A DNA stretch of 64,000 nt from the sequence record LC788710.1, one strand, 5' to 3'. The notes under the pieces were generated by a model. The model saw nothing but the letters and a program-made list of their open reading frames with translations, had not been told where the DNA came from and did no database searches. Below are positions 346-16,086 of this stretch, piece after piece. The position numbers were made by a program, and so were the translations under genes. This stretch comes from Escherichia coli phage Wa28. The number at the start of each line of letters is the position of its first letter. Within the stretch, counting starts at the first letter, position 1.

Positions 346-762
346 TTAGTGTGCTTGATGTGGGAATCTCTTCCTAACTAAGTACATAGTTATTGGATAT
401 ATTGAATACATAAGTATAGGGGAGAAAAGGGTGAAATAAGCCGTGACTCCCCCAGCTAACATTAGTGGTATCAATGCTAGAGTAAGGGCCATAAGAATCA
501 TACCGAATGAGACAGCCAGGGCTACTGTGATGCAGTTCTCTAACTCCATCCAAAGCCAACAATATTTCGTATTCCTCTGGCAGTTGCATTTGCAAACGCC
601 GAATGTGCCCATAATTATATACTCTAGCCCATGAACGACTTTCTTTAATGTATCATTTTGGGTAACTAGTGCGACAACAGTGAGAATTATCATTAAGATG
701 AAAATTACTAGGCTTATTTTCCATATTCCTAGTAATATCATGGTGAATAGTTCTGCAAACAT
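346..762 (-). CDS. small integral membrane protein (several predicted TM helices), downstream of endolysin
   Basis: ORF track 138 aa; hydrophobic stretches ILLGIWKISLVIFILMIILTVVALV and others. Confidence 0.5.
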   Translation of the reverse strand: MFAELFTMILLGIWKISLVIFILMIILTVVALVTQNDTLKKVVHGLEYIIMGTFGVCKCNCQRNTKYCWLWMELENCITVALAVSFGMILMALTLALIPLMLAGGVTAYFTLFSPILMYSIYPITMYLVRKRFPHQAH

Positions 763-837: not shown

Positions 838-1251
838 TCAGACTAATTCTACGTGACCACCGTCGTAAGTACCACGATCGATCTCATCATGATAATCACC
901 AGAACTATTCCAGTCGGCACCAAAACGAAGTTTGACACCAAGTTCCTTACCGGCTTGTTCAAAAGCCTTCTTAACAGCCCAAAATGCTTCCAGATCTTTC
1001 CAATCAATCTTTCCATTAATATATGGTGCAAAATCGATAGCGTCTCCAGTTACATGCTTACTCTTGCTAGGGTCTTTCAAAAATGAAGTACCATTAGCAA
1101 TGTTTTGGGCACTTTGTGCTACTGTACGAATACCCTGTACGATTGTGAAATCATATGGAGATAATTCTAAAGCCCTACGAGCTACCTTTTGTAGCTCGGG
1201 CTTAACAGTTGCTAATTGTTTTTCGCTATTTTTACCAAATTTAAAACTCAT
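838..1251 (-). CDS. lys: endolysin, L-alanyl-D-glutamate peptidase (M15 family zinc peptidase)
   Basis: 137 aa; motifs HVTGDAIDF and DGGHVEL typical of M15 peptidases; size and position match T5 endolysin. Confidence 0.75.
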   Translation of the reverse strand: MSFKFGKNSEKQLATVKPELQKVARRALELSPYDFTIVQGIRTVAQSAQNIANGTSFLKDPSKSKHVTGDAIDFAPYINGKIDWKDLEAFWAVKKAFEQAGKELGVKLRFGADWNSSGDYHDEIDRGTYDGGHVELV

Positions 1252-1904
1252 ATAGATCTACCTAATGATCTCCGTTGTGGGGAACAGAGCTTTGCTAAGT
1301 ACTCATTAAATTGTTCCGAATCAGCTGTATCTACGGGTTTATCCTTCCATGCAATACCTATGTATCCAGCATAGATATTATTTAGGTTGAAATATGGACA
1401 AGTGTAGACGTAATTAAAAGTAATGTTCTTAAATGCTGGTATATTTGACCCTGTATATTTATTTACTTTTACACTTAAATCCGCAGCGTAGTTAAAGCCT
1501 TCCAGGTGACGTCTATAAAGTTCAGACGTCTTATTTACTGCTTTATCGGCCAAGTCAGCCCTATCCAATTGCGCATTGCTTTCCCATGCAATAATGTTTG
1601 AATAATCATTTATAGCATCTGGTTTATACTTTACTACAAAAACGGCATCCGCACCAGTCTGGGAGAAAAGAACCATACTCTTTTCTCGTGCTACATTAGG
1701 AAAGTTATCTATCCTTTGGGTTTGAACATCCTGTAAAACCGAAGACGTGGAGAAAGTCTTTAAAAATGACATCACCTCGCTAGTGTTACTTACAAACAAG
1801 AAAATAATGACAGCAACTAAGATAGTTAGCAGACGTTTTAGTAGTGAAGCTGGATCTTTCGCTTCTTGTAGCAGTATCGTTAATAGTTGTATAAACTTTT
1901 CCAC
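1248..1904 (-). CDS. holin-like membrane protein immediately upstream of endolysin
   Basis: 218 aa, N-terminal TM helix (LLTILVAVIIFLFVSN), 4-nt overlap with endolysin start. Confidence 0.5.
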   Translation of the reverse strand: MEKFIQLLTILLQEAKDPASLLKRLLTILVAVIIFLFVSNTSEVMSFLKTFSTSSVLQDVQTQRIDNFPNVAREKSMVLFSQTGADAVFVVKYKPDAINDYSNIIAWESNAQLDRADLADKAVNKTSELYRRHLEGFNYAADLSVKVNKYTGSNIPAFKNITFNYVYTCPYFNLNNIYAGYIGIAWKDKPVDTADSEQFNEYLAKLCSPQRRSLGRSI

Positions 1905-2014
1905 TTGTAACCTCCTCTAACCACTACCATTATACTAATTCTAGAGTAAAATTACAATGTGTTTTTTAAGATCACTTCTGGAGCACAATTTTTTGTCGTT
2001 GTCAAGAAGAATTT

Positions 2015-2050
2015 TAGGCAAAAGAAAAGCCAGAGTCGTTAAACTCTGGC
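2015..2050 (-). terminator. rho-independent terminator (minus strand)
   Basis: Inverted repeat GCCAGAGT..ACTCTGGC followed on minus strand by T-rich run. Confidence 0.5.
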
Positions 2051-2060
2051 TTAAAACTAC

Positions 2061-2660
2061 TTACACTTCTCCATGTTCTTCTGGATGCGGGGCTTGAGCT
2101 TTACTACACTGCTCTTTACGATAATTCGCCAAAATTTCAATACGCTTATTGATTTCTTTGCTGTTGAGATAGATATTCTTATTCTCTTTTACCATGTCCT
2201 CGATTTCGTCGACAGAGAAGAACGGAAAGTAAATATCTAGCATCATATCTTCTACAAACTGGTTGTAGGATTCATATGCTTTCTTGATTTCTTGACCTTT
2301 CTCGCAGAATCCGCCAGAGAACGTATGTCCCATAAGCGTAGCATGTGGATGTACAACCCAACCGTGGCAAGATAGGAAGATTGTGCAGTAAGCAGAAGCA
2401 CTAGGACCGAGTAGGTGTCCAATAACAGTTCCACGACAGTTAGCGATTAGGTTAGATAGTTGTGCAGCAGTATCAACGTAACCACCCGGCCCATTAATCA
2501 TCAGATTAATTTCATCATCTTCACCAGCCTGCATCAGTATCATGGATAGGTCACGATACTCATCCGGTGAGCCTAATTCTTCATCAAAGAAAAAGGTATA
2601 TTCGTTAGATTGGCGAACAGTGTGAAACAGGTTAGTCTTTTCTTCTTTCTTGTTAGTCAT
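2061..2660 (-). CDS. ClpP-like serine protease
   Basis: 199 aa; ClpP-like core (MINGPGGYVDTAAQL ... GHTFSGG). Confidence 0.6.
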   Translation of the reverse strand: MTNKKEEKTNLFHTVRQSNEYTFFFDEELGSPDEYRDLSMILMQAGEDDEINLMINGPGGYVDTAAQLSNLIANCRGTVIGHLLGPSASAYCTIFLSCHGWVVHPHATLMGHTFSGGFCEKGQEIKKAYESYNQFVEDMMLDIYFPFFSVDEIEDMVKENKNIYLNSKEINKRIEILANYRKEQCSKAQAPHPEEHGEV

Positions 2661-2672
2661 AGTGATCCTTAA

Positions 2673-3425
2673 TTATCCAACTAGTGGTTCTAGCTCTAAG
2701 TCACAGAAGTGGTACACATCGGTACGAAGTGCATCAAGTCCGTTGAAGGTATTCTCAAATTTATGAGAAATATATTTTTCAGGAATACCGCTTTCAGACG
2801 GATGATCTGTCTCGATGCGATACTTATTAGTAATACCAGATTCAACCTTAATAAGCATGGAATCCATATCTAGAGTATTGGTTTCCATGATTAGTTCTCC
2901 CTCATTGGGGAAACGCACATCGGTAACGATTGCGACGTCTGGGTCGTCTTTATCGATGGATTGCTCCAGAATTATGAGCCAAATGCGTTCATGCACCAGC
3001 TGCCTTCCTAACTCAGTACCTACAAGCTGTAGCATTTTTCTTGGGGAGATAAATACGCTATACAGCGCATCATCAGCTTGCCCAATTAACTGCTGAGGAT
3101 CAAGGTATTTTCCTTCAAATATCGGCCAAACGTACGAGAAGTCCTCAAACTTATCGATACCATACTTAAACCATACGTCTCTAGCTCGCTCCAATTGAGA
3201 TTGTGTGACTGTAAACCATTGGTCAATCTCTTTTCCCCTGCGCTCTCCCAGAAACTCTGGAGTTACCCCGAGGATTACGGATGCAAGTTCGTAAACGGGT
3301 TTAGCAAAACTGTAACGACGGGATAAACACGTTGGGAACGTGTCATTACACCAGTCAATCATTAATTCTGCAACGGTATCTTTTCCCGCACCAGCCTCAC
3401 CATGTAAACCGACTAATACTGACAT
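2673..3425 (-). CDS. dnk: deoxynucleoside monophosphate kinase
   Basis: 250 aa; P-loop GLHGEAGAGKDT at N-terminus; typical position in T5-like phages. Confidence 0.7.
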   Translation of the reverse strand: MSVLVGLHGEAGAGKDTVAELMIDWCNDTFPTCLSRRYSFAKPVYELASVILGVTPEFLGERRGKEIDQWFTVTQSQLERARDVWFKYGIDKFEDFSYVWPIFEGKYLDPQQLIGQADDALYSVFISPRKMLQLVGTELGRQLVHERIWLIILEQSIDKDDPDVAIVTDVRFPNEGELIMETNTLDMDSMLIKVESGITNKYRIETDHPSESGIPEKYISHKFENTFNGLDALRTDVYHFCDLELEPLVG

Positions 3426-3778
3426 TAATCTTTCCTATTTGTAATGGGTGGATAGTAAACTAAGCAACGTTTTTCTTGTAAATCTTGACGATAGAAGCAA
3501 ACCATACCAGTCAGTCGTGAAATGTAAGAGTAAACTGCTTCCTCGCATTTTGCTTTTGCATTCCAATCTTTGTAAGGTACAACAACTACTACGCCATCTT
3601 CGCCATTCGTAGCTAATTTCTTTTCGAATTTGAAATCAAAGCTACACGGCTGAAGTCCTTTAGGCCAGTCAACATGGGCTTGCTTTAACTCATGTGAAGG
3701 CTCTGGTTTTATTTCTTCTGCACAGCCTGTGATTGTGATTGCGGCTGCGAGCAGTACTCCAAGTTTCCAGTTAAGCAT
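3425..3778 (-). CDS. lipoprotein, candidate outer-membrane spanin (Rz1-like)
   Basis: Signal peptide with lipobox LAAAITITG-C; overlaps 3' end of the upstream TM/coiled-coil ORF out of frame. Confidence 0.5.
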   Translation of the reverse strand: MLNWKLGVLLAAAITITGCAEEIKPEPSHELKQAHVDWPKGLQPCSFDFKFEKKLATNGEDGVVVVVPYKDWNAKAKCEEAVYSYISRLTGMVCFYRQDLQEKRCLVYYPPITNRKD

Positions 3779-4158
3779 GCTAATCTTTCCTCGAACTCCT
3801 TACTCTGCTTTTTAGCAATTAATGTAACCAATCCAGGCTTTGCAGCTATAATGTCTTGACGACTAAGTGCTTTATCAAGCTGACTAATTTTCTTGTCTAG
3901 ATCTGCTTGGGAAACATTATTCATTGTGAAATACTGATTCATACGAGTTTCACGAAGTTCACTTTCAGCTTTCACATTATTAAGGGAAGTCTCTAGGGAC
4001 GTAATCTTTTTAGTAGCTACTGCAAGATCACCTGCTAGAGTCTCAACCTTATTTACTAAGTGATAAGCACCGAATCCGATACCTATCGCAAGACCAGCTC
4101 CCAGGATATACCACTTACCTTGCCATATTCCTGAAAGAAGTTTTTGTATCAAATCCAT
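3709..4158 (-). CDS. membrane-anchored coiled-coil protein, candidate inner-membrane spanin (Rz-like)
   Basis: 149 aa; N-terminal TM (YILGAGLAIGIGFGAYHLV) then charged helical region. Confidence 0.5.
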   Translation of the reverse strand: MDLIQKLLSGIWQGKWYILGAGLAIGIGFGAYHLVNKVETLAGDLAVATKKITSLETSLNNVKAESELRETRMNQYFTMNNVSQADLDKKISQLDKALSRQDIIAAKPGLVTLIAKKQSKEFEERLACLTGNLEYCSQPQSQSQAVQKK

Positions 4159-4813
4159 GTGCTGCTAACCTGTCTTTATCTGATACGGTAATCATATCAG
4201 GCTCACCAGTTCCTAGTACACCGAAGATATACTGTTCGAGAACTTGGTGTAAACGGTATAAGTTACTTTCAATTTCCTGCCACGGAATACCTGACTGGTG
4301 GAAACGAATGTTTGTCTGAATTACGAAGTTACGAACATCATCGTTATCGTTCTTCTTAATACCTTTCACATATGCAATTGGTACGCGCAGTTCAGATAAG
4401 ATACGTTCTGCTTTAGGTTTTGCTTCAACCAACATATCTCGCATGGTTTCACGAACATCACCACGATTCTTGTCTAGTAAGTAAGAACGGGCATGTAATC
4501 CCATTTCTTCCATTTTATCAAATACAGCATCGATGTTGAACGTTTTGAAACTGAATGCCGGATGCCAGCAGGACAGCTCATGTAACCAGTAAACTTCACC
4601 TGCAATAAACAGCGGATTTACTGAGTATTCGAAATCACCACGGAAGGATAAGGAACCTTCACGAAACACCTGACGATTATGAACAATATTCTTTTCTACA
4701 TCGTCGGTTACTTTTACTCGCAGCTCTTCAGTTTTACGCTCCCAGACACGATCTGGATCAAATAAACTATTCTGCAAATCGTATACATCATTGAACTTTG
4801 AAATGATTCTCAT
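4115..4813 (-). CDS. hypothetical protein
   Basis: ORF track 232 aa, consistent strand and spacing. Confidence 0.5.
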   Translation of the reverse strand: MRIISKFNDVYDLQNSLFDPDRVWERKTEELRVKVTDDVEKNIVHNRQVFREGSLSFRGDFEYSVNPLFIAGEVYWLHELSCWHPAFSFKTFNIDAVFDKMEEMGLHARSYLLDKNRGDVRETMRDMLVEAKPKAERILSELRVPIAYVKGIKKNDNDDVRNFVIQTNIRFHQSGIPWQEIESNLYRLHQVLEQYIFGVLGTGEPDMITVSDKDRLAAHGFDTKTSFRNMAR

Positions 4814-4958: not shown

Positions 4959-5348
4959 TCACTCTTGTTTACTTAATTCTCTAGCACGACGTAGCGATCC
5001 AGCGGTTCTCCATAGTTTAATGTCGTCAACAACTTCTTTGTAGGGAGCAATAGTAAGACCTAGCGGCCCCGCTACCAACAGTCCAAAGAAACCAATTACA
5101 CGCATGTAAAGCAAGCATTCTTTGGGAGTCATTGACTGGACAGCCTGTCTTTCCTCAGCACTGTCGAACTCGTGTTCTCGATCGTCTAAACGTAGGTACT
5201 TAATAAACCATTCAGCAGAATATTCATCCAGATGACGAATAACTGCAATAGCATAGCCTAAACCAATAATAAACCATGCTGCTACAATGAATAAAATAAA
5301 GCTCATGATATCTCCAGTTAAAGTTGAGGTCAGCGACCAACTCACCAC
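4959..5348 (-). CDS. hypothetical membrane protein
   Basis: 129 aa with two hydrophobic helices. Confidence 0.5.
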   Translation of the reverse strand: MVSWSLTSTLTGDIMSFILFIVAAWFIIGLGYAIAVIRHLDEYSAEWFIKYLRLDDREHEFDSAEERQAVQSMTPKECLLYMRVIGFFGLLVAGPLGLTIAPYKEVVDDIKLWRTAGSLRRARELSKQE

Positions 5349-5423: not shown

Positions 5424-5708
5424 TTACTTGCTCTGCATTTCAGCGCGAAACTTTTTCATCTTACGAGTTTTACGGAAGAAGAAGTAAGTAGCTACTGGCC
5501 CGAACAAGGTGTCCATGATAAGCATACCTGACATAATGAATTTGAACATCTTTTCATCGTCAAATTCTGCTAATTCTGGTGGACGATATTTGTTTATAAC
5601 ATAAAGAATAACATCTTTATTTTTAGAGATATACAGATCATCAATCAGGCTGTAAATCGCGACAACTGCACCAATAACAAACCACAAAGCAAATGGAGAG
5701 ATAATCAT
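5424..5708 (-). CDS. hypothetical membrane protein
   Basis: 94 aa, hydrophobic N-terminus, 4-nt overlap with upstream gene. Confidence 0.5.
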   Translation of the reverse strand: MIISPFALWFVIGAVVAIYSLIDDLYISKNKDVILYVINKYRPPELAEFDDEKMFKFIMSGMLIMDTLFGPVATYFFFRKTRKMKKFRAEMQSK

Positions 5709-5998: not shown

Positions 5999-6449
5999 GT
6001 TCTTCTCTCCGACGTTTGCGTTCTTTCATCATGTAAGCTGCTACAACTTCATGGTAGTAGTCGTTAATGTTACCTTCAGGCAAGAAATGCTTAATCGTTT
6101 CTAGCTGGCAGACAACACGGTAAAGATGTTTATTTGGTAAACATAATTTCATGCCCATAACAAATCCAGAGAAGCCTGGAACACTGAACATGGGTTGGGC
6201 TTCTACGTTGCCCTCTGGATTGATACTAAGTTCAATCGAGATGCCCATTTTCATGCTATAAAGCTGACAGCCTTCACCATTGCCAAATCTTGACCAAACA
6301 GTGAAGTCCTCATCTATCTGATCTTGGATTTCTTCGACTGCATGTTTAATTCTAGGGTCTAAATTACTCATCTTCACCTTCAAAGCCGCAGTCATAACGG
6401 CAAGTAAAAGAATCAGAACTATTAGTACGTTGAGTAGTGATTTCACCAC
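5952..6449 (-). CDS. hypothetical protein (N-terminal TM, basic C-terminus)
   Basis: ORF track 165 aa. Confidence 0.45.
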   Translation of the reverse strand: MVKSLLNVLIVLILLLAVMTAALKVKMSNLDPRIKHAVEEIQDQIDEDFTVWSRFGNGEGCQLYSMKMGISIELSINPEGNVEAQPMFSVPGFSGFVMGMKLCLPNKHLYRVVCQLETIKHFLPEGNINDYYHEVVAAYMMKERKRRREERERAKSQQSSTDSSN

Positions 6450-6663
6450 GTTTACTAACAGTAATAGCCGGAGTAGAGAAGTTTTTATTAGTATAGATTT
6501 CTACTTTGCCATTACGTTCTTTAACATCACGTACTTTACCATATTCGGTGGTAATGCCGTTCTGCTGAACTTTAACATTACCATTTTTCATAGAAACTTT
6601 GGTAGATGCCAGAGAACCGAAACTAACTGCTGAAATTACCAGAGCAATAATAAACTTATTCAT
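6364..6663 (-). CDS. small secreted protein (signal peptide); start moved to internal Met
   Basis: ATG at 6661-6663 with GAGGAAG SD; MNKFIIALVISAVSFGSLA signal peptide. Confidence 0.5.
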   Translation of the reverse strand: MNKFIIALVISAVSFGSLASTKVSMKNGNVKVQQNGITTEYGKVRDVKERNGKVEIYTNKNFSTPAITVSKRGEITTQRTNSSDSFTCRYDCGFEGEDE

Positions 6664-6937
6664 CAGGATCTTCCTCATTACAGTCACGGCATACATCATA
6701 ATCGTTGTAAGAATGTTCGTGCGCTTCACACCACCAGCCACATTCGTCACACAGAAAGATTTCGGTCTTTTCAATGGCTTGGCCTAGTAATTCGTAGGCT
6801 TCATCATGTGTAATCTTCAGGCTACAAACATCAGCTACTTGTTGAACAATCAGACTCCCTACTTTGTGGTAGGACATGCAGGTTCCTTGTGCATCATGCT
6901 CAAGGACGTGGATAGCACAGTCTAAGCGATTTTTCAT
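6656..6937 (-). CDS. cysteine-rich small protein (possible zinc-binding)
   Basis: 93 aa; CDECGWWCEAHEH...CRDCNEED; promoter plus SD directly upstream. Confidence 0.5.
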   Translation of the reverse strand: MKNRLDCAIHVLEHDAQGTCMSYHKVGSLIVQQVADVCSLKITHDEAYELLGQAIEKTEIFLCDECGWWCEAHEHSYNDYDVCRDCNEEDPDE

Positions 6938-8832: not shown

Positions 8833-8908
8833 TGGTAGTTAGTAGTGGATTTGAACCACTGTAGTCGCTCCGTATGAAGGAGGTGCATAACCACTCTGCC
8901 AACTAACT
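8833..8908 (-). tRNA. tRNA-Met (anticodon CAT), manual call
   Basis: GTTCAAATCC T-arm, perfect 7-bp acceptor stem, encoded CCA, anticodon loop TTCATAC. Confidence 0.6.
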
Positions 8909-8914
8909 ATAATT

Positions 8915-8990
8915 TGGTACTCCGACTTGGGATCGAACCAAGATTTGACGATTATCGGTCGCCTGTTCTAACCGTTTGAACTATCGGAGC
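8915..8990 (-). tRNA. tRNA-Ile (anticodon GAT), manual call
   Basis: GGTTCGATCC T-arm, acceptor pairing, CCA end, anticodon loop CCGATAA. Confidence 0.6.
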
Positions 8991-8991
8991 A

Positions 8992-9285
8992 TTACATCAT
9001 TTCGTCTAAGTAAGAAGTATACTGGTATTTAGCTTCTCCAGTTTTATCTACTTCGACTTCTGTTCTAGGTACTTTTCGTACCAGACCGTGAATCATCTTG
9101 TACTGAATAGACTTAGATGGTTCGTGATCTTTTGGAAATACTTGTTTAACCGTTACTACTTTGAAGCCTTCACGAGGTGTTAGCACAACAACTTGATCAC
9201 CTTCTTTTATTTTCCAAGACTCAGGAAATTCGTAAGTGTAGCGTTGACCACCCGTTTGGAACACGACAGAAAGATAACGTTTCAT
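8992..9285 (-). CDS. hypothetical protein
   Basis: ORF track 97 aa; promoter module upstream. Confidence 0.5.
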   Translation of the reverse strand: MKRYLSVVFQTGGQRYTYEFPESWKIKEGDQVVVLTPREGFKVVTVKQVFPKDHEPSKSIQYKMIHGLVRKVPRTEVEVDKTGEAKYQYTSYLDEMM

Positions 9286-9315
9286 TTGGTTTCCCTCTCA
9301 TTAATTTATGTAAAT

Positions 9316-9344
9316 ATTATAACAAGAAATAAGAGAGAAGGCAA
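9316..9344 (-). promoter_or_regulatory. early promoter (-35 TTGCCT, -10 TATAAT)
   Basis: Conserved promoter module, reverse complement. Confidence 0.6.
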
Positions 9345-9359
9345 ATGAATTTTTAAATT

Positions 9360-9434
9360 TGGTGCTCCCACCAGGAATCGAACCCGGTTCAGATGCTTAC
9401 AAGGCAACTGCATCGCCAGCAATGCTTTAGGAGC
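9360..9434 (-). tRNA. tRNA-Thr (anticodon TGT), manual call
   Basis: GGTTCGATTCC T-arm, acceptor pairing with one G-U, CCA end. Confidence 0.55.
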
Positions 9435-9601
9435 AATAAACCCGTTATTTCAACGGAATTTCTTTTTCAAATACAGGAGACTTATCAGACATTACTGTCA
9501 TAGCCAACTGCTGTAGAAATTCGAATGAGAGTTTTAAACGTTCTTCACCCAACTCAACCTCAACACACTTCATTTGCTTATCAACCTTTAGCTTTAGATT
9601 A

Positions 9602-9823
9602 TCAGCCCTCTTCGGGTTCTCTTTGCTCAGCTATTGCTAGCCAGTCTGGTAAAAGAAACTTAGTACGAAATTCTTCATATGTTTCTTCTGGATGAAAGCT
9701 ATAGCCTTGCTTTTCATCATTTAATAAAACCGAACCGTCTTCCTGTTCATAAGCTCGGTATGTTTCACCAATAATTAAAACTCGTCTATTGGGGTTTTTA
9801 TTACGAAACTCAAAAACGTCCAT
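9602..9823 (-). CDS. hypothetical small protein
   Basis: ORF track 73 aa. Confidence 0.4.
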   Translation of the reverse strand: MDVFEFRNKNPNRRVLIIGETYRAYEQEDGSVLLNDEKQGYSFHPEETYEEFRTKFLLPDWLAIAEQREPEEG

Positions 9824-9838
9824 AACGTTTCCTTAAGT

Positions 9839-9913
9839 TGGTGCGGGATACGAGAGTCGAACTCGTGTCTACTGGTTGGAAGCCAGTTATTCTAGCCACT
9901 GAACTAATCACGC
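9839..9913 (-). tRNA. tRNA-Gly (anticodon TCC), manual call
   Basis: GAGTTCGACTC T-arm, CCA end, anticodon loop CTTCCAA. Confidence 0.55.
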
Positions 9914-9919
9914 ATAAAT

Positions 9920-9995
9920 TGGCTGGAGAAGGAGGAATCGAACCTACCATTAACGGAGTCAAAGGCCGTTGTGCTAACCGTTACACTACTCTCCA
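9920..9995 (-). tRNA. tRNA-Gln (anticodon TTG), manual call
   Basis: U1-A72 and discriminator G as in bacterial tRNA-Gln; loop CTTTGAC. Confidence 0.55.
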
Positions 9996-10001
9996 AGTAT
10001 T

Positions 10002-10077
10002 TGGCTGGGATGCCACGGATCGAACGTGGAACCTTCGGAGTCAGAGGCCGACGATCTGCCAATTGATCTACATCCCA
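10002..10077 (-). tRNA. tRNA-Gln (anticodon CTG), manual call
   Basis: U1-A72, discriminator G, loop CTCTGAC. Confidence 0.55.
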
Positions 10078-10084
10078 ATAATTT

Positions 10085-10285
10085 TTATTCTACAGGAACC
10101 GTGGCAATTGGATCTGGTTCTTCTAGACGTTTACCATTATGGTCAACACGAATAATACCACAACCTTCACAGATTACAACAGCACCATAGCCTTCTTTAA
10201 CTTCGGCTTCTGTAATCAGACCAGAAAGATCACCAGTATCTTTGCCCCACATATCGATAGAGCATTCTTTGCAGAAATCAGCCAT
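10085..10285 (-). CDS. hypothetical Cys-rich small protein
   Basis: 66 aa; CKEC...CEGC. Confidence 0.4.
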   Translation of the reverse strand: MADFCKECSIDMWGKDTGDLSGLITEAEVKEGYGAVVICEGCGIIRVDHNGKRLEEPDPIATVPVE

Positions 10286-10309
10286 ATTTTAGTTCCTGTA
10301 TAAGTTAAT

Positions 10310-10384
10310 TGGTGCATCCTCAGGGAATCGAACCCCGATCGTAAAGTTCGTAGCTTTACATTCTTTCCGTTGAAATAAGGACGC
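10310..10384 (-). tRNA. tRNA-Arg (anticodon ACG), manual call
   Basis: GGTTCGATTCCC T-arm, anticodon stem-loop GTAAAG-CTACGAA-CTTTAC. Confidence 0.55.
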
Positions 10385-10389
10385 ATATT

Positions 10390-10465
10390 TGGGGTGGCTA
10401 GTGGAATTCGAATCCACATAGGCCTGATTCACAATCAGGATCATTAACCAATTATGATATAGCCA
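10390..10465 (-). tRNA. tRNA-His (anticodon GTG), manual call
   Basis: Discriminator C, loop TTGTGAA, GGATTCGAATTCC T-arm. Confidence 0.6.
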
Positions 10466-10469
10466 CAAT

Positions 10470-10847
10470 TGAATACTATTAGGGGATGATCAGTCCTCCA
10501 TTTGGCCGTCTAAGGTACCAAAGTTAGTCATTCTGCGCACAGGTTTTTCTCCTGATTCTTTATTGCGAATGCTCTCTAATAATACTCAATTGTGGCGGCT
10601 CTCCGAAACTCTTCTACTCTAGCCTTAGCAGCTTACTCCCGAACGCATGTCGGGAAAGTCTTACTAAGAACATCAAATAGCACCGTTACACTTTGAGCCA
10701 TTAATGTATCAAGAAGCAGAAGGACTTGAACCTTCACGAGATAGACCATTTATCTCAGCCTCGTTTTCGGGTATCTTATGAGGAGTGGATGTTCCCCTTA
10801 CGCCCTTTAGGAAGCCCCGTCTACCGATTCCGGCATACTTCAAGATT
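10470..10847 (-). other. ORF-free segment inside tRNA cluster with T-arm-like motif; candidate degenerate tRNAs or small RNAs
   Basis: No ORF of 60 aa or more on the transcribed strand; GAAGGTTCAAGTCCTTC motif (reverse complement near 10720) without an obvious acceptor partner. Confidence 0.3.
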
Positions 10848-10937
10848 TGGCAGAAGATAATGGAGTCGAACCATCACCGTATCACTACAGCGGGCCGGTT
10901 TTCAAGACCGGTTACGTACCACTACGTCCTATCTTCT
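10848..10937 (-). tRNA. tRNA-Ser (anticodon TGA), class II, manual call
   Basis: Long variable arm, anticodon stem-loop CCGGT-CTTGAAA-ACCGG, CCA end. Confidence 0.55.
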
Positions 10938-11164
10938 AGTATTTGTTCTACTTCTTTTCGAAGATCTTCTGGATTATCATGATAGGTTGTTTGCCATACA
11001 TAAATAACTCCAGTATCACATGCTTTATCAAATATTTCTCGCTCAGGAAGTTTCATGCCCATTGCGTACTTGATATGAAACTCTAAAGCTTGCTTACTAG
11101 GGAATGTATGACGCAAGAAAAACTTATCATTAACTAAATCCAACATCATAATCTTGACTTTCAT
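10922..11164 (-). CDS. hypothetical protein
   Basis: ORF track 80 aa; 3' end overlaps the called tRNA 5' end. Confidence 0.4.
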   Translation of the reverse strand: MKVKIMMLDLVNDKFFLRHTFPSKQALEFHIKYAMGMKLPEREIFDKACDTGVIYVWQTTYHDNPEDLRKEVEQILEDRT

Positions 11165-11185
11165 TTATATTCCCTATTAGTTGTT

Positions 11186-11278
11186 TGGCGGAAGAAGAGA
11201 GATTCGAACTCTCAAGCCTGCTTTAACAAGTCAGCCACTTTCCAAGCGGTTTTCGTCACCTAATCGATTTGCTCTTCC
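11186..11278 (-). tRNA. tRNA-Ser (anticodon GGA?), class II, manual call
   Basis: GAGTTCGAATCTC T-arm, long variable region, loop TTGGAAA. Confidence 0.45.
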
Positions 11279-11452
11279 GTAGATCTCAGGATTAAATCAT
11301 AAACTTCATTAGCAGATACTGGAAGTATGAGATTATACATCTTTTGGTCATACCTCTGACCATACTCTATAAACACATACTCTTTAGTTAATGTATTAAC
11401 AGCTAACCAGATATCAGTTATAGGAGTTTTCATCATGAGTTAATCCAATGTT

Positions 11453-11533
11453 TGGTAGGGATGGAGGGACTCGAACCCACACCCGAAGACTAGAACCTAA
11501 ATCTAGCGCGTCTGCCAATTTCGCCACATCCCC
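11453..11533 (-). tRNA. tRNA-Leu (anticodon TAG), manual call
   Basis: Anticodon stem-loop CTAGA-TTTAGGT-TCTAG, extended variable arm, CCA end. Confidence 0.55.
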
Positions 11534-11540
11534 ATTTTAT

Positions 11541-11759
11541 TTAGTTAGAAATAAATAGTAACCCTGCAACAATGGAACCTATGCCACTGAATACCATTAT
11601 CAGCATAGCTTCTAAGCTGATAAAGCGGACGTTATATGGAGCGCCCCAAGAATAATCAGTAAAGAAAGTTTTCTTTTCTTTAGCTAAATCTTTAATAGTT
11701 CTAAAATAGATAGCTAGTGCTAAAGCTACAAGAACTACAGAGGCTGCTAAGAATACCAT
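11541..11759 (-). CDS. small membrane protein
   Basis: 72 aa, two hydrophobic helices. Confidence 0.45.
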   Translation of the reverse strand: MVFLAASVVLVALALAIYFRTIKDLAKEKKTFFTDYSWGAPYNVRFISLEAMLIMVFSGIGSIVAGLLFISN

Positions 11760-11778
11760 ATTATTTCCTTAATTTGTT

Positions 11779-11854
11779 TGGTGGAGTCACTCAGAATTGA
11801 ACTGAGTTCCACTGCTTGCAAGGCAGTAAGTTTAACCAAATAACCTATGACCCC
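11779..11854 (-). tRNA. tRNA-Ala (anticodon TGC), manual call
   Basis: G3-U70 pair, anticodon stem-loop ACTGC-CTTGCAA-GCAGT, CCA end. Confidence 0.6.
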
Positions 11855-11859
11855 GAATT

Positions 11860-11938
11860 TGGTGGAGAATAAGAGATTCGAACTCTTCTGATATCCTCGG
11901 TGCAAGCGAGGTGTCCACTCCAAGCAGACCCATTCCCC
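11860..11938 (-). tRNA. second tRNA-Ala-like gene (anticodon TGC), slightly longer, manual call
   Basis: G3-U70, anticodon stem-loop CCTCG-CTTGCAC-CGAGG; D-arm not resolved. Confidence 0.45.
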
Positions 11939-12200
11939 AAAATCTTTAAGTTTACTAAGGCTATTAGCTCGGTGTGCGTATTACCCTCAGACATTAGCCA
12001 GTAGAGGATAACCGCTCTTCACAAACCCGATACACTATTCAGTTGCCGCTGAATCTAGTGGACTAATCTAGAACTTATTGCAAAGTATCCCCCGCCATTA
12101 AGGGTCTACTTGCAATTGTGCTTTTTGGCAGCCAGTCCTAGGTCGAGCTAATACCTTAGTGAACTTTGATGAGGATTTCTCCTCATCAATTTATATAAAT

Positions 12201-12229
12201 ATTATAACAAGAAATTAAGCATCAAGCAA
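12201..12229 (-). promoter_or_regulatory. early promoter (-35 TTGCTT, -10 TATAAT) driving downstream noncoding leader and tRNAs
   Basis: Conserved module; overlaps stop of upstream ORF. Confidence 0.6.
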
Positions 12230-12581
12230 GTACATTTTTAGCGATTTCTTGTATTTCCTTAACGTCACTAACGAAAAGGTAATCAGAGCTTCCAGAGTGC
12301 ATACTCTGCATAACCACACCATCCTCTGGTGCATCTTCTTTCAAAGTAATACCTAACCAGAACTCGGCAAAACTAGGTGTTACCTCACCTTGACTTGCCT
12401 TGAATACATCGGCTTCTGTGATCTCCTGACCAGTAGAGAGTCCCATGTACGGTACGTTCAGATCAATATCTTTGTAAAACTCAGCTAGATCTTGTTCGAA
12501 GTCCCAACCTTTAGAGATAGCGAACTCCATTGTTACATGACCGAAATAGCCTTGAACCTTGCTTGATAATTGCATTTGCAA
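12222..12581 (-). CDS. hypothetical protein
   Basis: ORF track 119 aa. Confidence 0.5.
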   Translation of the reverse strand: MQMQLSSKVQGYFGHVTMEFAISKGWDFEQDLAEFYKDIDLNVPYMGLSTGQEITEADVFKASQGEVTPSFAEFWLGITLKEDAPEDGVVMQSMHSGSSDYLFVSDVKEIQEIAKNVLA

Positions 12582-12600
12582 TTCCTTATTTTGAGTTAAT

Positions 12601-12674
12601 TGGTACTCGGTGATAGAATCGAACTATCGCAACCGCCGTGTAAAGACGGGGTTCTCCCATTAAACTAACCGAGC
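12601..12674 (-). tRNA. tRNA with atypical anticodon arm (identity undetermined), manual call
   Basis: T-arm GTTCGATTC and acceptor pairing present; anticodon hairpin CCGT-CTTTAC-ACGG appears to have a 6-nt loop. Confidence 0.4.
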
Positions 12675-12678
12675 AATT

Positions 12679-12756
12679 TGGTGGATTGCCTGGGATTCGA
12701 ACCCAGAACTGACGGATTAAAGGTCCGCTACTCTTATCCGGTTGAGCTAGCAATCC
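12679..12756 (-). tRNA. tRNA-Lys (anticodon TTT?), manual call
   Basis: GGGTTCGAATCCC T-arm, loop CCTTTAA (C at position 33 is unusual). Confidence 0.5.
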
Positions 12757-13220
12757 AATTTTTCTACTAATAATTTAAAAGCATCTAGTACAGGTACTTC
12801 AAACCATTCCCCGGATACTCTGTAGTCTTTGAGAAGATTATGTAACTCTTTCTCCGTACGTCTTTTATCTGACGAAAATCTGAAATGGTGTAGCTTGTAG
12901 TCTCTATTAGGTGAATAGGTTTGATAACTTGCTAACCTCTCATTTACATCTATAGTCATACCTATTTTATACATGCCTGGCCATGCGGGATTACCGATTA
13001 CATATACAAAACCTTCCGTTATAGGTATTTTATGTTCTCTTTTGTATTTTAAGAGATTTAAAGCTGCCATTCGATAACAGAATTTAAATTCTGAAGTTTT
13101 TAACTTACCCTCTTTACCAGAAATTTCATTATATTTGCTCATATAAGCTCTTATAAGCTTATCATCTATAATAAAATTATCAGGAAGGTTTAAGGCAGCT
13201 AAAACTTTATTAATTAGCAT
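12747..13220 (-). CDS. T5orf172-domain protein (GIY-YIG-like putative homing endonuclease)
   Basis: 157 aa; motif FVYVIGNPAWPGMYKIGMTIDVNERLASYQ. Confidence 0.6.
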   Translation of the reverse strand: MLINKVLAALNLPDNFIIDDKLIRAYMSKYNEISGKEGKLKTSEFKFCYRMAALNLLKYKREHKIPITEGFVYVIGNPAWPGMYKIGMTIDVNERLASYQTYSPNRDYKLHHFRFSSDKRRTEKELHNLLKDYRVSGEWFEVPVLDAFKLLVEKLDC

Positions 13221-13374
13221 AAACTTCCTTAATAGAGTAGACTTTCAAGTAAGGATGATTAATACCAAATTCCGCCATTACTTCATTTTCATCTTTACCA
13301 TAATGGGCTAGTGGATACTTCTTACGATCTTTACTAGAACGTAAATCACTTACTTTTAAACGAAATAATTTCAT
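13210..13374 (-). CDS. small ORF (54 aa) missed by ORF track
   Basis: ATG at 13372-13374 with AAGGA SD; ends overlapping start of downstream gene. Confidence 0.35.
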   Translation of the reverse strand: MKLFRLKVSDLRSSKDRKKYPLAHYGKDENEVMAEFGINHPYLKVYSIKEVYAN

Positions 13375-13395
13375 TTCGAAATCCTTCTATTAAAT

Positions 13396-13472
13396 TGGAA
13401 GCGGGTGCAGGAATCGAACCTACCTCTTTCTAGCTTATGAGACTAGCGATCTCTACCAGAGATCTAACCCGC
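13396..13472 (-). tRNA. tRNA with CAT anticodon (Met/fMet candidate), manual call
   Basis: Loop CTCATAA; apparent mismatch at acceptor pair 1:72, which suggests initiator-like. Confidence 0.5.
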
Positions 13473-13479
13473 AATTGTT

Positions 13480-13557
13480 TGGTCTCCGTGGGAGGATTTG
13501 AACCCCCGACCCTATCGCCCCAAACGAAACGCTCTAGCCAAACTGAGCTACACGGAG
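13480..13557 (-). tRNA. tRNA-Pro (anticodon TGG), manual call
   Basis: GGGGGTTCAAATCCTCC T-arm, loop TTTGGGG, CCA end. Confidence 0.55.
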
Positions 13558-13589
13558 AATATTCTTTGTTAACTCACTTTATAAAATAT

Positions 13590-13618
13590 ATTATACAGAG
13601 AATTAAGCTAAATAGCAA
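13590..13618 (-). promoter_or_regulatory. early promoter (-35 TTGCTA, -10 TATAAT) upstream of tRNA-Pro and the CAT tRNA
   Basis: Conserved module. Confidence 0.6.
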
Positions 13619-13872
13619 CTACATTTTTTAATAAATTTACTTATTGCGTAGGCCACCTGGAGGGTTCAAGCCCCACGGCTGACAAAGAAGTTTGCGAGAC
13701 TTCTCTTAAACGCCAGAATAGACCCGCCGATCTATCGGAACCTACTCAATAAGTAAACTTTCGTTTACCTACACCTACCTGGTCGGGAGGATTTTCAGCG
13801 ACTAGAACCGGCCGGAAACTCATCGCCTTGTTTATCTAGGAGTCCGTTCTCTAGGAAGCAGAAACCTAAATT

Positions 13873-13946
13873 TGGTGCGGTCGGAGGGAATCGAACCCTC
13901 AACTTCTGGTTGGCAACCAAAAATTATACCTTTTAACTACGAACGC
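13873..13946 (-). tRNA. tRNA-Gly (anticodon GCC), manual call
   Basis: GAGGGTTCGATTCCCTC T-arm, loop TTGCCAA. Confidence 0.55.
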
Positions 13947-14159
13947 ATAATAAGTCAATCTAGGCAGGACTTGAACCTGCTATCACTTGTGCGGATTTAC
14001 GAGAACCATTCTTTCACTCGAATCGAACGAGCTTCTACCCTCGGCAAGCTGGTGTCCCCTCTCCACCACGCTAGAATGATAATTAGTGCCTGCTCCTTTG
14101 AATCAAGAAGTCCACCCCGGACTTTGGGTCTTTGCAGTACATCACGCTGCTCTGATGTT
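13947..14159 (-). other. ORF-free segment with two T-arm-like motifs; candidate degenerate tRNAs or small RNAs
   Basis: GCAGGTTCAAGTCCTGC and CTCGTTCGATTCGAG (reverse complement) without clean acceptor partners. Confidence 0.3.
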
Positions 14160-14236
14160 TGGTACACCCACTAGGACTTGAACCTAGAACCTACCGCTTA
14201 AGAGGCGGTAGCTCTAACCAATTGAGCTATGGATGT
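14160..14236 (-). tRNA. tRNA-Lys (anticodon CTT?), manual call
   Basis: CTAGGTTCAAGTCCTAG T-arm, anticodon stem-loop ACCGC-CTCTTAA-GCGGT. Confidence 0.5.
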
Positions 14237-14242
14237 ATAATT

Positions 14243-14317
14243 TGGCGGTACTAAGGGTAATCGAAACCCTACCTCTCCCGTGACAGGGGAGTATCCTAAC
14301 CGTTAGACTATAGTACC
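14243..14317 (-). tRNA. tRNA-Asp (anticodon GTC), manual call
   Basis: Discriminator G, anticodon stem-loop CTCCC-CTGTCAC-GGGAG. Confidence 0.6.
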
Positions 14318-14889
14318 TTTAACTTTTTAAGTTCTTTAGGATTGCCTCCTAAAGAAGTGTATCTTTTACGCAACCCATTATCTGAATAACTTAACTTTCT
14401 CCCTGCACCTGACCAGCCTAGCTCTCTTACTGTAACCTCGATTATTTCTTTAGTTATAGAGATATCTTTTGGTTTATGTGAAGAGCACTCCTGACATTTT
14501 TCAGCTTTTAAAGAAATAGCTTTACCACAATCCTTACAACAATTATCATGGTTTAGTTTACTAAATCCTTTATCTTTTAAAGTCTTTTCTAGATGCTGCT
14601 CTTTTGTGAGCACTTGTAAGTTATTAAGACCCCAATAAGTAATGTCTGTGTTAATATGGTCAACTTCTAGTTCAGAGTCTAGACTTGGTAATTTCTTAAA
14701 TGCACATGCTAAAATCCTATGTACACCGGTATTTCTCTGTTGACCATTTTTATGGAGACGTATAGATAAGTATCCGTAATTACTGGTTATTTGGGTTAGT
14801 ATTTTGTTTGATTTGATACTAAATACTAACCCATCCAAACTTACTAAGTACTCCTCAAACCCTGGAATGGGTAAGGATATTCCGTGCAT
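14308..14889 (-). CDS. HNH homing endonuclease
   Basis: 193 aa; GYLSIRL...VHRILACAF...EVDHINTDITYWGLNNLQVLT, C-terminal Cys cluster. Confidence 0.65.
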   Translation of the reverse strand: MHGISLPIPGFEEYLVSLDGLVFSIKSNKILTQITSNYGYLSIRLHKNGQQRNTGVHRILACAFKKLPSLDSELEVDHINTDITYWGLNNLQVLTKEQHLEKTLKDKGFSKLNHDNCCKDCGKAISLKAEKCQECSSHKPKDISITKEIIEVTVRELGWSGAGRKLSYSDNGLRKRYTSLGGNPKELKKLKVL

Positions 14890-14892
14890 AAT

Positions 14893-15078
14893 TTACTCAG
14901 TTTTGAGTTTTTCGATAGCTTCCTCAACCTCTTTTAGAGCTTCACGACGCTCTACTTGACCTTGAAGTTCTTCAAGAAGTTCAGCTTTCAGAGCCTTAAT
15001 AATATTACCACGAACCTTAATATTATTAATCAGATTATCACGATCAGCTTCTAGTCGAGCAATTGCACGAGTTGTCAT
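14893..15078 (-). CDS. small coiled-coil protein
   Basis: ORF track 61 aa. Confidence 0.4.
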   Translation of the reverse strand: MTTRAIARLEADRDNLINNIKVRGNIIKALKAELLEELQGQVERREALKEVEEAIEKLKTE

Positions 15079-15181
15079 ATCTATTTCCTCAGTTGTTAAT
15101 GAAAAATGGTATCTGTGACTGAATTCGATATCAGCAATGATAGCTGGTTGGCTACCGGTTTACTTAACTCTACACAGAATA

Positions 15182-15264: not shown

Positions 15265-15271
15265 TAAAATT

Positions 15272-15764: not shown

Positions 15765-15775
15765 TTTATGTAATA

Positions 15776-16075: not shown

Positions 16076-16086
16076 CTCCTTAAAAT

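What the first reader, a model, noticed from the sequence alone, without database searches (positions are those of the whole stretch)
3425..4158. Candidate overlapping spanin pair located away from holin and endolysin
A TM-plus-coiled-coil protein (3709-4158) overlaps out of frame with a lipoprotein bearing a lipobox (ITG-C, 3425-3778). That is the usual inner/outer spanin arrangement. The pair is separated from the holin-endolysin cassette (838-1904) by the dNMP kinase and ClpP-like genes.
Basis: inference. Interest (0 to 1): 0.5.

Follow-up and report, generated by a model that had tools for sequence, protein, structure and literature searches.

The report
Known T5-type overlapping spanin gene pair

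Summary
Two ORFs lie on the minus strand at exactly the given coordinates. The first (4158..3709, 149 aa) has an N-terminal transmembrane segment and a helical domain with a heptad pattern. The second (3778..3425, 117 aa) has a lipoprotein signal, LLAAAITITG|C19. They overlap by 70 nt, out of frame.

The window comes from a T5-like phage (Epseptimavirus; 100% identical to E. coli phage Shin27 over 3300-4300). The proteins are 94% and 90% identical to T5.045 and T5.044, which the T5 reference genome annotates as Rz-like spanins. They match the same PHROG families (739 and 812) as T4 PseT.3 and PseT.2, a pair shown by experiment to replace lambda Rz/Rz1. The two cysteines essential in T4 PseT.2 are conserved here (C94, C105).

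Kongari et al. 2018 (PMC6139136) already describe a "T5 family" of overlapped spanins with a 70-bp overlap. It includes EPS7, the namesake of this genus.

The gap between the spanins and the holin-endolysin pair (dNMP kinase, Clp-like protease, terminator, promoter) recurs in all five Demerecviridae loci examined. It mirrors T4, whose spanins are also remote from t and e.

Nothing here is new, so interest is low. No direct experiment on a T5-family spanin was found.

The parts
3709..4158 (-). i-spanin gene (149 aa): N-terminal transmembrane segment, helical periplasmic domain, C-terminal Cys128/Cys136
   Evidence: ORF. PHROG 739 'Rz-like spanin', E 3e-38. 94% identical to T5.045. 29% identical to T4 PseT.3, E 7e-07. 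dN/dS 0.12 against T5.
3425..3778 (-). o-spanin gene (117 aa precursor, 99 aa from the lipidated Cys19)
   Evidence: ORF. PHROG 812 'Rz-like spanin', E 5e-30. 90% identical to T5.044. 29% identical to T4 PseT.2, E 2e-07. dN/dS 0.07 against T5.
3709..3778 (-). 70-nt dual-coding overlap. It encodes the i-spanin C-terminus (including Cys128 and Cys136) and, offset by 2 nt, the o-spanin signal peptide and lipobox.
   Evidence: Only 3 of 70 nt differ from T5. The same 70-bp overlap is reported for T5 in PMC6139136.
3722..3733 (-). Lipobox codons I16-T17-G18-C19 (ATC ACA GGC TGT); Cys19 is the predicted lipidation site
   Evidence: Pattern match; DNA. G18 and C19 are invariant in alignment A1. The Sugarland homologue record notes LipoP SPII cleavage at residues 18-19.
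4054..4110 (-). Predicted transmembrane segment of the i-spanin (residues 17-35, glycine-rich: GAGLAIGIGFGA)
   Evidence: Kyte-Doolittle maximum. Partly helical in the AF2 model: helix from residue 25, residues 15-24 coil, pLDDT about 50 over this stretch.
3964..4053 (-). Heptad-repeat (coiled-coil-like) helix alpha-1 of the i-spanin, residues 36-65
   Evidence: 8 of 8 a/d positions hydrophobic; 41 of 2000 shuffles reach this. pLDDT 81-91 over residues 41-70. The A2 profile weakly hits coiled-coil proteins in the PDB.
3464..3499 (-). Codons for the o-spanin segment C94-FYRQDLQEKR-C105; the two cysteines align with the essential C87/C98 of T4 PseT.2
   Evidence: Alignments (both Cys invariant). 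Essentiality in T4 from PMC6139136.
2673..3425 (-). dNMP kinase gene; its ATG overlaps the o-spanin stop codon (TAATG)
2061..2660 (-). Clp-like protease gene, last gene of the unit that holds the spanins
2027..2052 (-). Terminator-like hairpin (11 pairs plus a T run) after the Clp-like gene; it separates the spanin unit from the holin-endolysin unit
   Evidence: A terminator is annotated at the equivalent place in T5, Sugarland, Slocum and PR1.
1929..1957 (-). Promoter-like site (TTGTAA-17-TATAAT, 10 of 12 matches) upstream of the holin gene
   Evidence: A promoter is annotated at the equivalent place in T5.
1248..1904 (-). Holin gene (T4 T-type)
   Evidence: Pfam Phage_holin_T, E 8e-111. PHROG 860.
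838..1251 (-). Endolysin gene (M15 peptidase, T5 type)
   Evidence: Pfam Peptidase_M15_4. PHROG 465.
4115..4813 (-). 232-aa gene of unknown function (T5.047 homologue); it overlaps the i-spanin start by 44 nt and is the likely first gene of the transcription unit
   Evidence: (PHROG 4243). A promoter-like site lies at 4907-4879. A promoter is annotated upstream of T5.047.

Best explanation
The two genes encode the two-component spanin of a T5-like phage (Epseptimavirus), in the 'overlapped' architecture.

- **Anchoring (inferred).** The 149-aa protein is anchored in the inner membrane by its N-terminal transmembrane segment and projects a helical, partly coiled-coil domain into the periplasm. 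The 117-aa protein is exported, lipidated on Cys19 and cleaved by signal peptidase II. Because residue +2 is Ala rather than Asp, the Lol system sorts it to the inner leaflet of the outer membrane.
- **Complex (inferred).** The C-terminal parts of the two proteins bind each other, making a bridge across the periplasm that is threaded through the peptidoglycan. Disulfide bonds probably stabilise it. Candidates are the o-spanin C94/C105, equivalent to the essential T4 pair, and the i-spanin C128/C136.
- **Action (inferred).** When the T-type holin and the M15 endolysin, made from the next transcription unit downstream, destroy the cell wall, the complexes are freed. They then disrupt the outer membrane, most likely by fusing it with the inner membrane, and release the virions.

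Shown here: the ORFs, their signals, purifying selection, homology and synteny. Inferred from homology to T4 PseT.3/PseT.2 and from the lambda Rz/Rz1 model: topology, complex formation, disulfides and the fusion step.
For: - The ORFs and their 70-nt out-of-frame overlap are real.
- The lipobox fits the PS51257-type pattern, with Ala at +2.
- The i-spanin has a TMD and a heptad helix.
- PHROG 739 and 812 'Rz-like spanin' match at E 3e-38 and 5e-30. T4 PseT.3 and PseT.2 match the same two families.
- Direct BLASTP to the T4 pair gives E 7e-07 and 2e-07. The T4 C87/C98 equivalents and the KPGL motif are conserved.
- The T4 pair complements lambda Rz-am/Rz1-am, and its two Cys are essential (PMC6139136).
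- The proteins are 94% and 90% identical to T5.045/T5.044, annotated as Rz-like spanins.
- The T5 spanin family, including EPS7 and the 70-bp overlap, is published.
- Near-identical genes are annotated i-spanin/o-spanin in phages IrmaTschudi, TrudiRoth, Seafire and SmurfNell.
- dN/dS is 0.07-0.12 in the annotated frames and above 2 in the control frames.
- The order spanins-dnk-Clp-terminator-holin-endolysin recurs in T5, Shivani (where the two spanin genes are split by an inserted gene), Sugarland, Slocum and PR1.
Against: - My searches found no direct experiment on any T5-family spanin. The function rests on about 29% identity to the tested T4 pair.
- No Pfam family matched either protein at E <= 0.01. 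NCBIfam gave no family for the o-spanin and only sub-threshold chance-level matches for the i-spanin.
- The signal-peptidase-II site was tested only with a pattern, not with LipoP or SignalP.
- The positive-inside bias around the TMD is weak: net +1 on the N side and 0 on the C side, read from the sequence.
- The Sugarland record carries an automated note 'N out C in' for its homologue. That is the opposite of the required topology.
- The single-sequence AF2 models have low overall confidence, mean pLDDT 64 and 55.
Confidence: 0.93

Rival explanations
1. The 117-aa lipoprotein has a different role, for example a receptor-blocking or superinfection-exclusion lipoprotein like T5 Llp. On this view the 149-aa protein is an unrelated bitopic membrane protein, for example FtsL-like, and the overlap is only compact phage gene packing.
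For: - Lipoproteins of T5-like phages are known to have other roles (own knowledge of Llp).
- The o-spanin profile weakly hits a PDB chain called 'Phage lipoprotein' (9rps_D, E 0.068), and BamB.
- The i-spanin weakly hits an FtsL model at 21 bits, against a cut-off of 50.
Against: - The PDB hits cover only the signal-peptide part (profile positions 1-44) and are not significant. The FtsL hit is far below its cut-off.
- Both proteins match the T4 PseT.2/PseT.3 families strongly, and the cysteines essential for function are conserved.
- The two genes stay paired in every Demerecviridae genome examined. This holds even in Shivani, where an inserted gene splits them.
Confidence: 0.04
2. The downstream ORF (3778..3425) is a chance open frame and not a gene, as its absence from several GenBank annotations would suggest.
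For: Several records annotate nothing or only 'hypothetical protein' under it. Examples are EscoHU1 NC_133119, SH9 NC_047999 and STG2 MK005300.
Against: - dN/dS is 0.07 in this frame and above 2 in the other frames.
- The ORF is conserved down to 38% identity, with invariant G18-C19, W38-P39, C94 and C105.
- It matches PHROG 812 at E 5e-30.
- Its stop overlaps the dnk start (TAATG), and a GAGGAAAG motif precedes its ATG.
- Missed embedded or overlapped o-spanin genes are a documented annotation problem (PMC6139136).
Confidence: 0.01
3. The pair is a true spanin homologue but is dispensable or inactive in this phage, with outer-membrane disruption done by another factor such as a disruptin-type peptide.
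For: No experiment on the T5 family was found. Lambda spanin defects are conditional on divalent cations (own knowledge of the Rz/Rz1 phenotype).
Against: Strong purifying selection acts on both genes, and all functional motifs are conserved across genera. I noticed no other candidate outer-membrane disruptor, but I did not search for one systematically.
Confidence: 0.02

Closest known systems
Phage T5 spanins T5.045 (i-spanin) and T5.044 (o-spanin); the 'T5 family' of Kongari et al. 2018, which includes EPS7
   Same: - 94% and 90% amino-acid identity.
- The same 70-nt overlap and the same frame offset.
- The same neighbours: dnk, Clp-like protease, terminator, promoter, holin, endolysin.
- The same six periplasmic cysteines.
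   Different: - The first 10 or so residues of the i-spanin differ.
- T5 has the HNH endonuclease gene hegF between T5.047 and T5.045. Here the T5.047 homologue overlaps the i-spanin start by 44 nt.
- There are a few substitutions in the o-spanin linker.
Phage T4 PseT.3 / PseT.2 spanins (experimentally validated)
   Same: - The same PHROG families, 739 and 812.
- A conserved KPGL motif in the i-spanin, and a conserved CxYRxxLxExxC motif in the o-spanin with both essential cysteines.
- The o-spanin is offset by 2 nt relative to the i-spanin (coordinates).
- Both pairs lie away from the holin and endolysin genes. Both phages use a T-type holin.
   Different: - Only about 29% identity.
- T4 is 'separated', with a 4-nt ATGA junction, against a 70-nt overlap here.
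- The i-spanin here carries a C-terminal extension of about 30 aa with two cysteines. T4 PseT.3 has none.
- The o-spanin here has two extra cysteines (C45, C78) and a 12-aa C-terminal tail.
Lambda Rz / Rz1
   Same: The same functional class and topology: a type II inner-membrane protein with a coiled-coil periplasmic domain, plus an outer-membrane lipoprotein encoded out of frame in overlapping DNA. Periplasmic cysteines are present in both partners.
   Different: - No detectable sequence similarity: Pfam returned no family for either protein.
- Lambda Rz1 is fully embedded, short, proline-rich and unstructured (PMC6139136).
- Here the o-spanin extends beyond the i-spanin gene. A low-confidence model predicts a beta-alpha-beta domain.
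- Lambda's genes sit in the lysis cassette; these do not.
Salmonella phage Shivani / phiR201 spanins (T5 family, 'separated')
   Same: The proteins are 87% identical across the periplasmic domains.
   Different: In Shivani a 232-aa endonuclease-like gene sits between the two spanin genes and removes the overlap. The i-spanin C-terminal tail and the o-spanin N-terminus are replaced. This is already described in PMC6139136.

Membership tests
Two-component spanin (functional class) | i-spanin: a single N-terminal transmembrane segment followed by a helical or coiled-coil periplasmic domain | tested here: met
   Hydrophobic stretch at residues 17-35. Heptad pattern at residues 36-65, reached by 41 of 2000 shuffles. 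AF2 helix over 25-79 with pLDDT up to 91. N-in/C-out topology is only weakly supported by the charge bias.
Two-component spanin (functional class) | o-spanin: signal-peptidase-II signal with a lipobox Cys, and no inner-membrane retention residue (Asp) at +2 | tested here: met
   LLAAAITITG|C19 fits the PS51257-type pattern, with Lys5 in the n-region and Ala at +2. G18-C19 are invariant in homologues. LipoP and SignalP were not available.
Two-component spanin (functional class) | Adjacent i- and o-spanin genes in an embedded, overlapped or separated architecture | tested here: met
   Overlapped: 70 nt shared, and the o-spanin extends 284 nt beyond the i-spanin stop.
Two-component spanin (functional class) | Periplasmic cysteines available for intermolecular disulfide bonds | tested here: met
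   i-spanin C128 and C136; o-spanin C45, C78, C94 and C105. Whether they form disulfides cannot be tested here.
Two-component spanin (functional class) | Needed for outer-membrane disruption; complements lambda Rz/Rz1 mutants | not testable with these tools
   This needs an experiment. It has been shown only for the T4 homologues (PMC6139136).
T4 PseT.3/PseT.2 sequence family (PHROG 739 / PHROG 812) | Significant profile match of both partners to the families that hold the T4 proteins | tested here: met
   Window proteins: E 3e-38 (PHROG 739) and 5e-30 (PHROG 812). T4 PseT.3 and PseT.2: E 1e-37 and 5e-42 to the same families.
T4 PseT.3/PseT.2 sequence family (PHROG 739 / PHROG 812) | Conservation of the two o-spanin cysteines essential in T4 (C87, C98) | tested here: met
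   C94 and C105 align with them and are invariant in all seven sequences.
T5 spanin family of Kongari et al. 2018 (at least 40% identity over at least 40% of length) | Identity to the T5 i- and o-spanins above the family threshold | tested here: met
   94% over 139 of 149 residues, and 90% over 117 of 117 residues. Family definition from the abstract of PMC6139136.
Lambda Rz / Rz1 sequence families | Sequence match to lambda-type Rz and Rz1 models | tested here: not met
   Pfam-A returned no family for either protein at E <= 0.01. The pair is therefore a functional analogue of lambda Rz/Rz1, not a detectable homologue. That Pfam holds lambda Rz and Rz1 models is my own knowledge.
Receptor-blocking phage lipoproteins (T5 Llp type) | Sequence similarity of the mature part to such a lipoprotein | tested here: not met
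   The only PDB 'Phage lipoprotein' hit (9rps_D) has E 0.068 and covers profile positions 3-43, that is the signal peptide and linker.

The most novel reading that the evidence does not exclude
The T5-family spanin may differ mechanistically from its T4 relative. Three features suggest this:

- A conserved Cys-containing C-terminal extension on the i-spanin (CLTGNxEYC).
- Two extra o-spanin cysteines, giving six periplasmic Cys in all.
- Co-transcription with early nucleotide-metabolism genes rather than with the holin.

The complex might therefore be assembled early and held by a different disulfide architecture, for example i-spanin homodimers as in lambda plus the T4-type o-spanin pair. That would make it a natural hybrid of the lambda and T4 disulfide strategies. 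Nothing here tests this.
Probability: 0.15. Interest if true: 0.3.

Novelty: already known. Interest (0 to 1): 0.06.

Why it matters
It matters little for discovery. The pair is a routine member of a published spanin family in a very well sampled phage group, with about 540 records holding both genes.

Its practical value is for annotation. Many GenBank records of near-identical phages leave the o-spanin unannotated or call both genes 'hypothetical'. This includes the record that is 100% identical to the window over the 1-kb stretch compared. Transferring the spanin labels would correct these records.

One gap remains. The searches here found no T5-family spanin tested by experiment. The family's extra cysteines would make it a reasonable comparison case for the disulfide requirements worked out in lambda and T4.

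Tried and rejected
- **Pfam-A and NCBIfam.** Pfam returned no family for either protein. NCBIfam gave only sub-threshold matches (FtsL at 21 bits against a cut-off of 50), rejected as composition or coiled-coil noise.
- **PDB sequence search with family profiles.** No homologue has a solved structure. The hits were lipoprotein signal peptides and generic coiled coils.
- **Single-sequence AlphaFold2 of the o-spanin.** Confidence is low (mean pLDDT 55). I used only its secondary-structure order, beta-beta-alpha-beta-beta after a disordered linker, as a weak echo of the beta-alpha-beta layout described for T4 PseT.2. I ran no fold search on it.
- **Spurious-ORF reading.** I considered that the o-spanin ORF might be spurious because some records omit it. 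Selection and conservation reject this.
- **Llp-type exclusion lipoprotein.** Considered and rejected.
- **False starts.** Two literature calls failed on terms that were too short. One script failed on a file name. My first guess at the T4 pseT region was wrong and was corrected.
- **Deliberately not run.** I did not run the large protein-database searches, the search for related loci or the metagenome scans, because the annotated phage collection and the literature had already settled the question.
Full report
**What is in the sequence**

- The upstream gene runs 4158..3709 (ATG start, 149 aa).
- The downstream gene runs 3778..3425 (ATG start, 117 aa).
- They share 70 nt (3709-3778). The downstream frame is offset by 2 nt.
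- The downstream stop overlaps the start of the dNMP kinase gene (TAATG at 3427-3423).
- The upstream start lies 44 nt inside the preceding 232-aa gene, so the genes are tightly packed in one direction.

**Features of the two proteins**

The 149-aa protein:

- Its most hydrophobic stretch is residues 17-35, YILGAGLAIGIGFGAYHLV.
- Residues 36-65 follow with a clean heptad pattern. Hydrophobic residues occupy 8 of 8 a/d positions, and 41 of 2000 shuffles reach that value.
- A single-sequence AlphaFold2 model gives one continuous helix over 25-79, with pLDDT 81-91 over residues 41-70, and then shorter helices up to residue 129. Overall confidence is modest, mean pLDDT 64.
- It has two cysteines near the C-terminus, C128 and C136. 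Both are encoded within the overlap.

The 117-aa protein:

- It begins MLNWKLGVLLAAAITITG|C. That is a basic residue, a hydrophobic core and a lipobox, and it fits the PROSITE PS51257-type pattern.
- Ala follows the lipidated Cys19. By the established +2 rule for E. coli lipoproteins, this means outer-membrane sorting (the rule is my own knowledge).
- The mature part has four more cysteines: C45, C78, C94 and C105.

**Are both frames really coding?**

Yes.

| Comparison with T5 | Annotated frame | Other two frames |
|---|---|---|
| o-spanin, outside the overlap (dN/dS) | 0.07 | 2.6 and 2.1 |
| i-spanin, outside the overlap (dN/dS) | 0.12 | 3.7 and 2.1 |

- The 70-nt overlap differs from T5 at only 3 positions, against 15% divergence over the whole o-spanin gene. 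That is what dual coding predicts.
- Translated searches find the o-spanin in 539 phage records and the i-spanin in 541.
- The most distant homologues are in Klebsiella (Sugarland), Serratia (Slocum) and Providencia (PR1) phages, at 38-46% (o-spanin) and 30-36% (i-spanin) identity.
- In a seven-sequence alignment that includes T4, the o-spanin residues G18, C19, W38, P39, C94 and C105 are invariant. So is the i-spanin K107-P108-(G)-L110 motif.

**Where the window comes from, and what is already annotated**

- Bases 3300-4300 are 100% identical to E. coli phage Shin27. They are at least 99% identical to 21 records of Epseptimavirus phages (Demerecviridae, T5-like).
- The proteins are 94% and 90% identical to T5.045 and T5.044. 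The T5 reference genome annotates both as 'Rz-like spanin', with notes pointing to T4 PseT.2 and PseT.3.
- Near-identical genes are labelled i-spanin and o-spanin in phages IrmaTschudi, TrudiRoth, Seafire and SmurfNell.
- Both proteins match PHROG families annotated 'Rz-like spanin': PHROG 739 at E 3e-38 and PHROG 812 at E 5e-30.
- T4 PseT.3 and PseT.2 match the same two families, at E 1e-37 and 5e-42.
- Direct BLASTP to the T4 proteins gives 29% identity, with E 7e-07 and 2e-07.

**Literature**

Kongari et al. 2018 (PMC6139136) built a spanin database. Their findings bear directly on this pair.

- They list a 'T5 family' among the overlapped i- and o-spanin families. Members are T5, EPS7, Stitch, SPC35, AKFV33, FFH1, DT57C and My1, plus Shivani and phiR201 as 'separated' members.
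- They state that the T5 spanins overlap by 70 bp.
- They report that in Shivani and phiR201 a GIY-YIG homing endonuclease gene of about 700 bp splits the pair. I saw the same thing independently in the Shivani locus.
- They show that T4 pseT.3/pseT.2 complement a lambda Rz-am/Rz1-am lysogen, and that both PseT.2 cysteines (C87, C98) are essential. These are the residues that align with C94 and C105 here.
- I found no paper reporting an experiment on a T5-family spanin.

**Surroundings and transcription**

Reading downstream on the minus strand, the order is:

1. The 232-aa T5.047 homologue (4813..4115).
2. The i-spanin.
3. The o-spanin.
4. The dNMP kinase gene (3425..2673).
5. The Clp-like protease gene (2660..2061).
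6. A strong terminator-like hairpin (2052..2027).
7. A good sigma-70-like promoter (1957..1929, TTGTAA-17-TATAAT).
8. The T-type holin gene (1904..1248, Pfam Phage_holin_T, E 8e-111).
9. The M15 endolysin gene (1251..838).

- The T5 reference annotates a terminator and a promoter at the same place, and a promoter upstream of T5.047.
- The whole order, with the terminator, recurs in Sugarland, Slocum and PR1.
It is the conserved layout of the five Demerecviridae loci examined (T5, Shivani, Sugarland, Slocum, PR1).
- The spanins most likely sit in a different transcription unit from the holin and endolysin. This is inferred from consensus scans and from other records' annotations, not measured.

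**Most likely mechanism**

This follows the Rz/Rz1 and PseT.3/PseT.2 models.

1. The i-spanin is a type II inner-membrane protein.
2. The o-spanin is lipidated at Cys19 and sorted to the outer membrane.
3. The two bind through their C-terminal regions across the periplasm and are stabilised by disulfides.
4. After holin-triggered endolysin action removes the peptidoglycan, the complexes act on the outer membrane, probably by fusing it with the inner membrane.

Shown here: signals, homology, conservation, selection and synteny. Inferred: topology, complex formation, disulfides and fusion.

**Differences from T4**

- Here there is a 70-nt overlap. T4 has a 4-nt junction.
- The i-spanin has a C-terminal extension of about 30 residues with a conserved C-x7-C. 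It is present in all Demerecviridae sequences aligned and absent in T4.
- The o-spanin has two extra cysteines and a 12-residue tail.
- A low-confidence model (mean pLDDT 55) of the o-spanin shows a disordered linker followed by beta-beta-alpha-beta-beta. This loosely resembles the beta-alpha-beta layout described for PseT.2.

**Weak points**

- The function rests on about 29% identity to the tested T4 pair.
- No Pfam model matches either protein, and no NCBIfam model reaches its cut-off. No homologue has a solved structure.
- The SPase II site was tested only by pattern.
- The charge bias around the TMD is weak.
- One homologue's record carries an automated 'N out C in' note.

**Rivals**

The rival readings are a lipoprotein with another role, a spurious ORF, and an inactive homologue. 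Each is unlikely, for the reasons given in its entry.

**Verdict**

The pair is already known, as a member of the published T5 spanin family, and interest is low. The only useful by-product is for annotation: several near-identical GenBank records lack the o-spanin CDS or call both genes hypothetical.

Noticed in passing
L004 (Salmonella phage Shivani KP143763) 1909-3354: A 232-aa gene with Zn-ribbon-like CxxC motifs (2315-3013) lies between the i-spanin and o-spanin genes. It turns the overlapped pair into a separated one. The i-spanin C-terminal tail and the o-spanin N-terminus are replaced. This is already described as a GIY-YIG homing endonuclease insertion in PMC6139136.
   Followed up: yes
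L001 (EscoHU1 NC_133119) 3626-3979; also SH9 NC_047999 and STG2 MK005300; L002 (Shin27 LC788709): Several near-identical phage records have no CDS at all for the o-spanin, or label both spanin genes 'hypothetical protein'. This includes Shin27, which is 100% identical to the window over 3300-4300. It is an annotation gap, not a biological difference.
   Followed up: partly
L010 (Providencia phage PR1 KY363465) 3006-3458: The annotated i-spanin (PR1_50, 3117-3458) starts downstream of its transmembrane segment. The ORF starting at 3006 gives 150 aa with a TMD (ANWATILILVLLILSGI), so the deposited start is probably wrong. The record also calls it an 'outer membrane lipoprotein i-spanin'.
   Followed up: partly
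window 346-762 (-): A 138-aa very hydrophobic protein lies directly downstream of the endolysin gene. Its position matches T5.039, which the T5 record says has four transmembrane domains and its own promoter. Its function is unknown. Whether it takes part in lysis control was not examined. It has no significant NCBIfam match.
   Followed up: no
window 4959-5348 (-) and 5424-5708 (-): Two small hydrophobic proteins lie upstream of the spanin unit. Their positions match T5.048 and T5.049, both annotated 'two transmembrane domains' in the T5 record. Their function is unknown.
   Followed up: no
window 8833-22292 (-): A cluster of 29 tRNA genes, all on the minus strand. It includes three tRNA-Met (CAT) and duplicated Gln, Ala, Gly, Lys, Leu, Ser and Arg genes. 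This is the T5-type tRNA region.
   Followed up: no
window 838-1904 and 3425-4158: T5-like phages share two lysis components with T4: the holin family (Phage_holin_T) and the spanin families (PHROG 739 and 812). Their endolysin is unrelated, an M15 peptidase instead of T4 lysozyme. So holin and spanins, but not the endolysin, are common to the two phage groups.
   Followed up: partly
search hits (e.g. MG065692 'Campylobacter phage C13'; three 'Listeria' records): Records named as Campylobacter or Listeria phages carry this enterobacterial T5-like region. One (MG065692) is 88% identical at protein level. These are probably mislabelled hosts or contaminating phages in those deposits.
   Followed up: no
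window 4115-4158 versus L005 (T5) 6246-6743: In T5 the HNH endonuclease gene hegF sits between T5.047 and the i-spanin gene. In the window that gene is absent, and the T5.047 homologue overlaps the i-spanin start by 44 nt. The first 10 or so residues of the i-spanin differ among the window, T5 and Shivani. Both ends of the i-spanin gene therefore look like endonuclease insertion sites.
   Followed up: partly
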